The notes under the pieces: generated by a model
What the model was told of the DNA's origin: nothing
What the model saw: only the letters and a program-made list of their open reading frames with translations
The model's database searches: none
Position numbers and translations under genes: made by a program
Source: Escherichia coli
GTDB taxonomy: Bacteria > Pseudomonadota > Gammaproteobacteria > Enterobacterales > Enterobacteriaceae
Reading direction: 5' to 3' (one strand)
DNA: 64,000 nucleotides
Assembly: GCF_041248615.1 (NCBI RefSeq)
Contig: NZ_CP158426.1
Shown: piece after piece, positions 60,898 through 61,923 of the stretch
Layout: every line of letters begins with the position of its first letter
Numbering within the stretch: the stretch's first letter is position 1

Positions 60898-61923
60898 TTA
60901 ACGCACGGGCGGCGCGTACTGAATTCCGCCGTTATTCCAGAGATTATTTTGCCCACGTTTAATTTTCAGCGGGCTTTCTGAACCTACGTTACGCTCAAAA
61001 ATTTCCGAGTAGTTACCCACCTGTTTGATGATGTTGTAAGCCCATTTATTATCCAGCTTCAGATCCTTGCCGTAATCGCCCTCTTTACCCAGCAGATGTG
61101 CCATATCGGGCGTTGCTGGATTAGCCGCTTTTTCATCGACGTTTTGCGAGTTAACGCCCATCTCTTCAGCATTCAGCATGGCGAAAAGCGTCCAGCGTAC
61201 AATTGAGAACCATTCATCATCGCCACGACGAACTACCGGCCCAAGCGGTTCATTAGAGATAACTTCCGGTAAGACAATCCATTCAGCTGGGTTGCTTAAT
61301 TTGATGCGCAGGGCATACAGTTGTGATTGATCCGAGGCTAGCGTATCGCAGCGACCAGATTCCAGTGCCTTCGCTGATTCGTCAGAGCGATCGAAAGTCA
61401 CTGGTGTGTACTTCATATTGTTTGCCTTAAAGTAATCGGCAACGTTGAGTTCGGTATCAGTACCCGCCTGAATACAGACGGTAGCGCCATCCAGTTCTTT
61501 CGCGCTTTTTAGTCCCGCTTTATCGTGAGTCAGGAAGCCAATGCCGTCGTAATAAGTGACGCCGGTAAATGCCATTCCCATCCCGGCATCGCGAGATGAA
61601 GTCCAGGTCGTATTACGGGAGAGCAAATCCACCTCCCCTGACTGTAAAGCCGTGAAGCGTTCTTTTGCAGTGAGCGGGGTATATTTCACTTTCGTGTCGT
61701 CACCAAATACAGCTGCCGCAACACCACGACAAACATCTACATCAATACCTGAAAACTTACCGTCAGCATCGGCATAAGAGAACCCAGGTAATCCATCACT
61801 GATCCCGCATTGCACAAAACCTTTTTTCTGTACGGCATCAAGCGTCGCGCCAGCATGCGCCTGATTTGCAACGGCAAGCAGCACGCTGGCGGCAGCCAGT
61901 GTGGCTATCATCATCTTTTTCAT
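60898..61923 (-). CDS. yhdW: amino-acid ABC transporter periplasmic binding protein YhdW (intact)
   Basis: 341-aa ORF with signal peptide MKKMMIATLAAASVLLAVANQAHA. Confidence 0.9.
   Translation of the reverse strand: MKKMMIATLAAASVLLAVANQAHAGATLDAVQKKGFVQCGISDGLPGFSYADADGKFSGIDVDVCRGVAAAVFGDDTKVKYTPLTAKERFTALQSGEVDLLSRNTTWTSSRDAGMGMAFTGVTYYDGIGFLTHDKAGLKSAKELDGATVCIQAGTDTELNVADYFKANNMKYTPVTFDRSDESAKALESGRCDTLASDQSQLYALRIKLSNPAEWIVLPEVISNEPLGPVVRRGDDEWFSIVRWTLFAMLNAEEMGVNSQNVDEKAANPATPDMAHLLGKEGDYGKDLKLDNKWAYNIIKQVGNYSEIFERNVGSESPLKIKRGQNNLWNNGGIQYAPPVR

What the first reader, a model, noticed from the sequence alone, without database searches (positions are those of the whole stretch)
60898..61923. 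yhdW is an intact 341-aa binding-protein gene
My recollection is that yhdW is annotated as a pseudogene in K-12 MG1655, whereas here the frame is uninterrupted with a clear signal peptide. The yhdWXYZ amino-acid ABC transporter is therefore probably complete in this strain.
Basis: partly seen in the sequence, partly recalled or inferred. Interest (0 to 1): 0.2.

Follow-up and report, generated by a model that had tools for sequence, protein, structure and literature searches.

The report
Intact yhdW amino-acid binding-protein gene
This E. coli strain carries the normal, unbroken yhdW gene for a periplasmic amino-acid binding protein; the broken copy in the laboratory strain K-12 is the exception, so the finding is correct but ordinary and already published.

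Summary
Window 60898..61923 (minus strand) is an uninterrupted 341-codon ORF. It is the ortholog of K-12 yhdW, lying between yhdV and yhdX. It has a Sec-type signal peptide and an SBP_bac_3 domain, and it matches the solved Brucella BztA/AapJ-type binding protein over its full length (E = 4e-121).

MG1655 b3268 is annotated as a pseudogene. Its only lesion is the loss of one A at CDS nucleotide 68 (window base 61856), which gives a stop after 78 codons. A 2026 preprint describes the same lesion.

The intact form is the norm. Of about 5,400 complete E. coli genomes, 4,481 carry the exact intact 72-mer and 355 carry the K-12 deletion. All 60 deletion carriers listed are laboratory strains, nearly all of them named K-12 derivatives.

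yhdX, yhdY and yhdZ, the sigma-54 promoter and the terminator are all intact, so the operon is complete at sequence level.

One caveat is new. This strain (NRZ14408, a carbapenem- and colistin-resistant clinical isolate) has a rare K224N change at a residue that is invariant in 117 of 117 homologs. Its effect on function is untested.

Verdict: correct, already known, low interest.

The parts
60898..61923 (-). yhdW coding sequence: 341 codons plus stop, intact. [quoted passage not shown]
   Evidence: ORF. Annotated as an intact CDS, WP_192459657.1, in NRZ14408. Pfam SBP_bac_3 at 59.3 bits, above the cut-off of 26.4. Matches PDB 4z9n at E = 3.9e-121 over residues 22-341.
61852..61923 (-). Signal-peptide coding part (codons 1-24, MKKMMIATLAAASVLLAVANQAHA). 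The predicted cleavage is after A-H-A.
   Evidence: Sequence inspection of the translation. No predictor was run. The similarity to the mature Brucella protein begins at residue 22.
61856..61856 (-). The base (A of codon 23, CAT) that is deleted in K-12. It is present here, which keeps the frame open.
   Evidence: Alignment and script. The same lesion (nt 68 deletion, 78-aa product) is reported in preprint 10.64898/2026.05.04.722672.
61252..61254 (-). Codon 224, AAT (Asn). Other E. coli alleles and all homologs examined have AAA (Lys). This is a rare missense change within the invariant motif VLPEVISKEPLGP.
   Evidence: Searches give the codon and the seven other strains. The exact 46-mer is found in only 1 of 5,426 genomes. 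K is present in 117 of 117 homologs. The exact protein is found on 23 public contigs.
61928..61933 (-). Shine-Dalgarno sequence AGGAAG, 4 nt upstream of the ATG.
   Evidence: Sequence. Identical in K-12.
62004..62019 (-). Sigma-54 promoter (-24/-12 element) TGGCACTACTTTTGCT, the yhdWp promoter.
   Evidence: It is the only match to TGGCAC-N5-TTGCW in the 64-kb window, against 0.19 expected by chance. It is identical to the sigma-54 ChIP-seq site listed for b3268 in PMC4591121. yhdWp is described as a perfect consensus match in PMC7045595.
62109..62127 (-). Perfect palindrome TGCGCCAAAATGTGGCGCA, about 90-110 bp upstream of the -24 element. It is a candidate binding site for a sigma-54 activator (NtrC or ZraR). 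This is an inference.
   Evidence: Flagged as an inverted repeat and identical in K-12. NtrC ChIP-seq gives a peak assigned to yhdWXYZ (PMC4066584). Assigning this palindrome to that peak is my inference.
59649..60830 (-). yhdX, permease, 393 aa, intact.
   Evidence: BPD_transp_1 domain, same length as K-12, 9 aa differences. EAA motif.
58536..59639 (-). yhdY, permease, 367 aa, intact.
   Evidence: EAA motif.
57770..58528 (-). yhdZ, ATP-binding subunit, 252 aa, intact.
   Evidence: Walker A GPSGSGKS, signature ISGGQ, Walker B IMLFDE and H-loop THE.
57721..57746 (-). Terminator-like hairpin (11 pairs followed by a T-rich tail), 24 nt after the yhdZ stop codon.

Best explanation
Window 60898..61923 (minus strand) is the ancestral, intact allele of yhdW. 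Its product is exported through Sec and its 24-residue signal peptide is removed. The mature protein of about 317 residues is a two-lobed class-3 periplasmic binding protein of the AapJ/BztA ('general L-amino acid') type. It captures an amino acid and delivers it to the YhdX-YhdY permease pair, which is powered by the YhdZ ATPase. The likely ligand is asparagine and perhaps other polar amino acids, by orthology with the Citrobacter rodentium protein. The four genes form one operon, transcribed from a sigma-54 promoter that NtrC (nitrogen limitation) and reportedly ZraR activate, and ending at a hairpin after yhdZ. The K-12 pseudogene is a derived state of the laboratory lineage, caused by loss of one A in codon 23. 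What is shown here: the ORF is intact, the K-12 lesion is at the stated position, the intact allele predominates in the species, the operon partners and promoter are intact, and the family assignment holds. What is inferred: export, ligand, regulation in this strain, and activity of the K224N variant.
For: The ORF is intact and annotated as such. The K-12 lesion is a single-base deletion at nt 68, giving a stop after 78 codons, as published. Repaired K-12 equals the protein of wild strain A27. The exact intact 72-mer is in 4,481 of 5,397 matching genomes. The exact K-12 deletion 72-mer is in 355, and all 60 of those listed are laboratory strains, nearly all named K-12 derivatives. SBP_bac_3 domain. 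Full-length match to PDB 4z9n at E = 3.9e-121. Homologs of 72-99% identity across Enterobacterales and Pseudomonas are named 'general L-amino acid transport system substrate-binding protein' by some sources. Synonymous differences far outnumber non-synonymous ones. yhdX, yhdY and yhdZ are full length with their catalytic and coupling motifs. The sigma-54 element is the only match in the window and is identical to the ChIP-seq site. NtrC ChIP gives a peak at yhdWXYZ. C. rodentium YhdW binds Asn with a Kd of 0.37 uM.
Against: No expression or transport data exist for this strain. The ligand was measured only for the C. rodentium ortholog, and in that organism the system was not the main Asn importer. 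This allele has K224N at a position invariant in 117 of 117 homologs and in Brucella BztA, so full activity cannot be assumed. No NCBIfam equivalog model reaches its cut-off; the best, TIGR01096, scores 197.6 against a cut-off of 256.35. Specificity therefore cannot be read from curated models.
Confidence: 0.83

Rival explanations
1. The frame is intact, but K224N impairs or alters the protein, for example its hinge motion, docking or ligand specificity. The transporter in this clone would then be functionally closer to the binding-protein-less K-12 state than the ORF suggests.
For: K224 is invariant in 117 of 117 homologs of 72-99% identity. It is the only one of 180 positions that are at least 95% invariant at which this protein deviates. 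Brucella BztA also has K there. The exact 46-mer around the codon occurs in only 1 of 5,426 complete genomes. The residue lies in the motif VLPEVISKEPLGPxVR, just before the conserved G-x-x-V-R-x-G-D segment, which in this class of binding proteins returns the chain from lobe 2 to lobe 1. Placing it in the hinge is my inference.
Against: K to N is a moderate change (BLOSUM62 score 0). More distant family-3 binding proteins vary at the aligned position (A in 2yjp, K in 1xt8). The exact protein recurs on 23 public contigs, so the clone carrying it persists. No structural or biochemical test was possible: the AlphaFold model was poor, with pLDDT below 50 at residues 222-234.
Confidence: 0.13
2. 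The open frame is an assembly or sequencing artefact, and the strain really carries a K-12-like frameshift.
For: None found.
Against: The intact 72-mer around the site is shared exactly by 4,481 genomes. The identical gene sequence was recovered in an independent NCBI assembly and in a Logan assembly of a public read set.
Confidence: 0.01
3. The gene is intact but silent, a decaying gene that has not yet been hit.
For: The system is dispensable in laboratory media and degenerates in Shigella and K-12.
Against: There is strong purifying selection across E. coli, with 13-35 synonymous against 1-3 non-synonymous differences per comparison. The sigma-54 promoter, ribosome-binding site and candidate activator site are identical to those of K-12, where sigma-54 and NtrC binding have been measured. 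Mutants show in vivo fitness defects in C. rodentium and in uropathogenic E. coli.
Confidence: 0.03

Closest known systems
E. coli K-12 MG1655 yhdW (b3268), pseudogene
   Same: Same locus and synteny (acrEF-yhdV-yhdW-yhdXYZ). There are 28 nucleotide differences over 1026 positions apart from the deletion. The ribosome-binding site and sigma-54 promoter are identical, and the 277 nt upstream differ at only 4 positions.
   Different: K-12 lacks A68 of the CDS, which gives a stop after 78 codons. The first possible restart in the main frame is a GTG at about codon 36, beyond the signal peptide. The window allele has the A and reads through. After repair, the two proteins differ at V64I, N224K and V257I.
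Intact YhdW of other E. coli (for example WP_000738584.1 in strains 042 and ETEC6333) and of Citrobacter
   Same: 341 aa, with an identical signal peptide. The protein of 042 and ETEC6333 differs from the window protein at one residue only. The C. koseri ortholog is about 96% identical. C. rodentium YhdW is a characterised high-affinity Asn-binding protein.
   Different: The window protein has N instead of K at position 224. Ligand binding has not been measured for any E. coli protein in the sources I read.
BztA/AapJ-type general L-amino-acid binding proteins (PDB 4z9n from Brucella; Rhodobacter BztABCD; Rhizobium AapJQMP)
   Same: Colinear match over the whole mature protein (E = 3.9e-121). 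The same four-gene architecture of binding protein, two permeases and an ATPase. Regulation by nitrogen limitation (for Aap; for yhd).
   Different: These are more distant proteins from alphaproteobacteria. Broad specificity (Glu, Gln, Asp, Asn, or general L-amino acids) is reported for them, whereas the enterobacterial ortholog tested bound Asn specifically.

Membership tests
[quoted passage not shown] | Same chromosomal position as K-12 b3268: downstream of acrEF-yhdV and upstream of yhdX-yhdY-yhdZ. | tested here: met
   Annotated regions of NRZ14408, JME67 and MG1655. There are 28 nucleotide differences from K-12 over 1026 positions.
[quoted passage not shown] | Full-length open frame of 341 codons. 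| tested here: met
   Seven other E. coli alleles have the same length.
[quoted passage not shown] | Retention of the residues that are invariant across the subfamily. | tested here: inconclusive
   179 of 180 positions that are at least 95% invariant are kept. K224 is replaced by N. The consequence is unknown.
Family-3 bacterial periplasmic solute-binding proteins (Pfam PF00497; PAAT family ABC importers) | SBP_bac_3 domain scoring above Pfam's gathering score. | tested here: met
   59.3 bits against a cut-off of 26.4, E = 4.3e-16.
Family-3 bacterial periplasmic solute-binding proteins (Pfam PF00497; PAAT family ABC importers) | N-terminal export signal. | tested here: met
   MKK, a hydrophobic core, then AHA|G. 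This was judged by inspection only; no predictor was run.
Family-3 bacterial periplasmic solute-binding proteins (Pfam PF00497; PAAT family ABC importers) | Genetic linkage to cognate permease(s) and an ABC ATPase. | tested here: met
   yhdX and yhdY (BPD_transp_1, EAA motifs) and yhdZ (Walker A and B, signature) lie directly downstream.
Family-3 bacterial periplasmic solute-binding proteins (Pfam PF00497; PAAT family ABC importers) | Two-lobed binding-protein fold. | tested here: met
   This rests on sequence only: a colinear match to the solved chain 4z9n_A at E = 3.9e-121. My own AlphaFold model was too poor to add anything (mean pLDDT 64.9).
Family-3 bacterial periplasmic solute-binding proteins (Pfam PF00497; PAAT family ABC importers) | Binding of an amino-acid ligand. 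| not testable with these tools
   Measured only for the C. rodentium ortholog (Asn, Kd 0.37 uM).
Lys/Arg/Orn-binding subfamily (NCBIfam TIGR01096) | Score above the curated cut-off. | tested here: not met
   197.6 bits against a cut-off of 256.35. The protein is not filed in this subfamily.
K-12-type yhdW pseudogene | Deletion of A at CDS nt 68. | tested here: not met
   The A is present at window 61856.
Sigma-54 / NtrC-dependent nitrogen-scavenging operons | A -24/-12 element (TGGCAC-N5-TTGCW) upstream of the first gene. | tested here: met
   TGGCACTACTTTTGCT at 62019..62004, the only match in the window. It is identical to the ChIP-seq-mapped site.
Sigma-54 / NtrC-dependent nitrogen-scavenging operons | Activator binding and induction under nitrogen limitation. 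| not testable with these tools
   Shown for K-12 in PMC4066584. The upstream palindrome at 62109-62127 is only a candidate site.

The most novel reading that the evidence does not exclude
K224N, a rare change at an otherwise invariant residue of the binding protein, may be a functional lesion or a specificity switch fixed in this multidrug-resistant clinical clone. That would be a second, independent route to the same outcome as the K-12 frameshift: weakening or loss of the binding-protein arm of YhdWXYZ. A 2026 preprint links that outcome to altered antibiotic homeostasis.
Probability: 0.1. Interest if true: 0.3.

Novelty: already known. Interest (0 to 1): 0.08.

Why it matters
It matters little in itself. 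The result confirms that K-12 is the atypical strain at this locus, and that work on YhdWXYZ as an amino-acid importer should use strains with an intact binding protein. The intact form, the K-12 nt-68 deletion and its 78-aa product are already described (preprint 10.64898/2026.05.04.722672). K224N is the only item not already in the literature I read. It could serve as a natural variant for testing the role of an invariant lysine in AapJ/BztA-type binding proteins.

Tried and rejected
1. AlphaFold2 on a 45-sequence alignment, to place residue 224 in the structure. Mean pLDDT was 64.9 and the segment 222-234 scored below 50. The alignment was too shallow and too uniform. I did not use the model and ran no fold search on it.
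2. A literature search for PDB 4z9n, to find ligand-contact residues. Only two papers mention the entry. The one I read, the 2026 preprint, calls the structure unpublished, so I took no residue-level information from it.
3. NCBIfam. No equivalog model reaches its cut-off, so substrate specificity cannot be read from curated models.
4. A sequencing error as the source of K224N. I rejected this because the exact protein is on 23 public contigs, including an independent read-set assembly.
5. A translational restart in K-12 that would rescue an exported protein. I rejected this because the first start codon in the main frame is a GTG at about codon 36, downstream of the signal peptide.
6. A sigma-70 promoter scan of the operon region gave fewer hits than the shuffled controls and nothing well placed upstream of yhdW. 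This fits a promoter that depends on sigma-54.

Full report
**The observation**

The ORF list for the end of the window gives an ATG-initiated, 341-codon open frame at 60898..61923 on the minus strand. AGGAAG lies four bases upstream of the ATG. The N-terminus MKKMMIATLAAASVLLAVANQAHA|GATL has the basic, hydrophobic and A-x-A layout of a Sec signal peptide. I judged this by eye, since no predictor was available.

The whole window is 100% identical to the chromosome of E. coli NRZ14408 (NZ_LT599825.1, 512001-576000). NRZ14408 is a carbapenem- and colistin-resistant clinical isolate. RefSeq annotates the same CDS there as an intact amino-acid ABC transporter substrate-binding protein.

**What the gene is**

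The protein has a Pfam SBP_bac_3 domain above the gathering score. Its whole mature part aligns with the solved Brucella 'amino acid ABC transporter periplasmic amino acid-binding protein' 4z9n at E = 3.9e-121. A 2026 preprint identifies 4z9n as the BztA/AapJ-type neighbour of YhdW.

Database homologs of 72-99% identity occur across Enterobacterales and Pseudomonas. Several sources call them general L-amino-acid transport substrate-binding proteins. No NCBIfam equivalog reaches its cut-off.

Directly downstream are:
- yhdX (59649-60830, 393 aa) and yhdY (58536-59639, 367 aa), both with BPD_transp_1 domains and EAA motifs;
- yhdZ (57770-58528, 252 aa), with Walker A, signature, Walker B and H-loop motifs;
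- a hairpin terminator at 57746..57721.

All three proteins have the same lengths as in K-12.

Upstream, TGGCACTACTTTTGCT at 62019..62004 is the only match to the sigma-54 consensus in the 64-kb window. It is letter-for-letter the sigma-54 ChIP-seq site listed for b3268 (PMC4591121). yhdWp is treated as a sigma-54 promoter with a perfect consensus in PMC7045595. NtrC ChIP-seq gives a peak assigned to yhdWXYZ (PMC4066584).

A perfect palindrome at 62127..62109, identical in K-12, is a candidate activator site. That assignment is my inference.

**The K-12 comparison**

NC_000913.3 annotates yhdW (b3268) as a 1025-nt pseudogene. PGAP marks the copy in the K-12-type strain JME67, which is identical in sequence to MG1655's, as frameshifted.

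Alignment shows one missing base: the A of codon 23 (CAT), CDS nucleotide 68, which corresponds to window position 61856. It lies inside the A-H-A cleavage motif. The K-12 frame then runs to a stop after 78 codons. The first possible start codon in the main frame is a GTG at about codon 36, past the signal peptide, so no exported protein can be made.

Putting the A back gives a protein identical to the intact YhdW of wild strain A27. The deletion is therefore the only lesion. [quoted passage not shown]

**How common each state is**

| 72-nt query across the site | Genomes with an exact match | Genomes that match at all |
|---|---|---|
| K-12 sequence (with the deletion) | 355 | 5,394 |
| Window sequence (intact) | 4,481 | 5,397 |

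The 60 exact K-12 matches listed are all laboratory strains, nearly all named K-12 derivatives (MG1655, DH5alpha, DH1, C600, J53, NCM3722 and others). Most of the remaining genomes differ by point changes rather than by the deletion. The locus as a whole is present at 80% coverage or more in 5,392 of 5,426 genomes. The intact gene is the species norm and the K-12 state is a peculiarity of the laboratory lineage.

Synonymous differences (13-35 per comparison) far outnumber amino-acid changes (1-3) between the window allele and seven others. This indicates purifying selection.

Codon 224 is AAT (Asn) here. It is AAA (Lys) in all seven other E. coli alleles I extracted.

- The exact 46-mer around the codon occurs only in NRZ14408 among 5,426 complete genomes.
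- In an alignment of 118 homologs, Lys occupies this column in 117 and one has a gap. It sits in the invariant motif VLPEVISKEPLGP.
- It is the only one of 180 positions that are at least 95% invariant at which this protein deviates.
- Brucella BztA also has Lys there.

The change is not a sequencing error. The exact protein is in public collections under several accessions and on 23 contigs, including an independent read-set assembly with an identical gene sequence.

By analogy with other family-3 binding proteins, the motif lies where the chain crosses back from lobe 2 to lobe 1. I could not verify this, because my AlphaFold model was poor in exactly that segment. Whether K224N matters is therefore open. 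I give about 0.13 to the reading that it impairs or changes function.

**Mechanism**

What is shown at sequence level:
- an exportable binding protein;
- two permeases and an ATPase;
- a sigma-54 promoter and a terminator.

Together these make a complete type I ABC importer operon.

What is inferred from published work on orthologs:
- The ligand is probably asparagine. C. rodentium YhdW binds it with a Kd of 0.37 uM.
- Expression responds to nitrogen limitation through NtrC and to ZraSR.
- The system contributes to fitness in the host rather than to growth in laboratory media.

**Verdict**

The observation and the interpretation are both correct, and the suggested check locates the K-12 lesion precisely. 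All of this is already known, and the intact state is ordinary. Interest is low.

Noticed in passing
window 50300-57700: A 7.4-kb accessory island sits between the distal 5S rRNA gene of rrnD and yhdZ, where K-12 has only about 230 bp. It holds an IS1414 transposase (50505-51713), a frameshifted ABC ATPase (52079-52745), a truncated iron ABC permease (52748-53302), an intact PhoX-family gene (53399-55378, minus strand) and IS remnants (56021-56724 and 57176-57505). Only 41 of 5,426 complete E. coli genomes hold 80% or more of it.
   Followed up: partly
window 61252-61254: K224N in YhdW is a rare missense change at a residue invariant in 117 of 117 homologs. The exact allele is in 1 of 5,426 complete genomes but on 23 public contigs.
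   Followed up: partly
window 62083-62127: A perfect palindrome, TGCGCCAAAATGTGGCGCA (62127..62109), and an adjacent imperfect one (62100..62083) lie about 65-110 bp upstream of the sigma-54 -24 element. They are identical in K-12 and are candidate NtrC or ZraR activator sites. The scan listed them as terminator-like hairpins.
   Followed up: no
window 18825-20410: The gene order here is tuf-bfd-bfr, a 155-aa prepilin peptidase, then rpsJ. K-12 has chiA before bfd, and gspO, gspM and gspL after bfr; in the window a single 155-aa prepilin peptidase gene lies between bfr and rpsJ. The bfr allele is very divergent from K-12, with 96 of 477 nt and 18 of 158 aa different.
   Followed up: partly
window 59649-60830 (yhdX): Eight of the nine amino-acid differences from K-12 YhdX cluster at residues 187-222. 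All are conservative hydrophobic exchanges, which suggests a locally divergent or recombined segment in a membrane-spanning region.
   Followed up: no
related loci (E. coli EC-07, NZ_CM192846.1, hit H40): In this strain the match to the window stops after 211 bases, and an IS1A transposase is annotated under the match beside yhdX. This suggests that yhdW is disrupted there by an independent route. In 28 of 5,420 genomes the match covers less than 80% of the locus.
   Followed up: no
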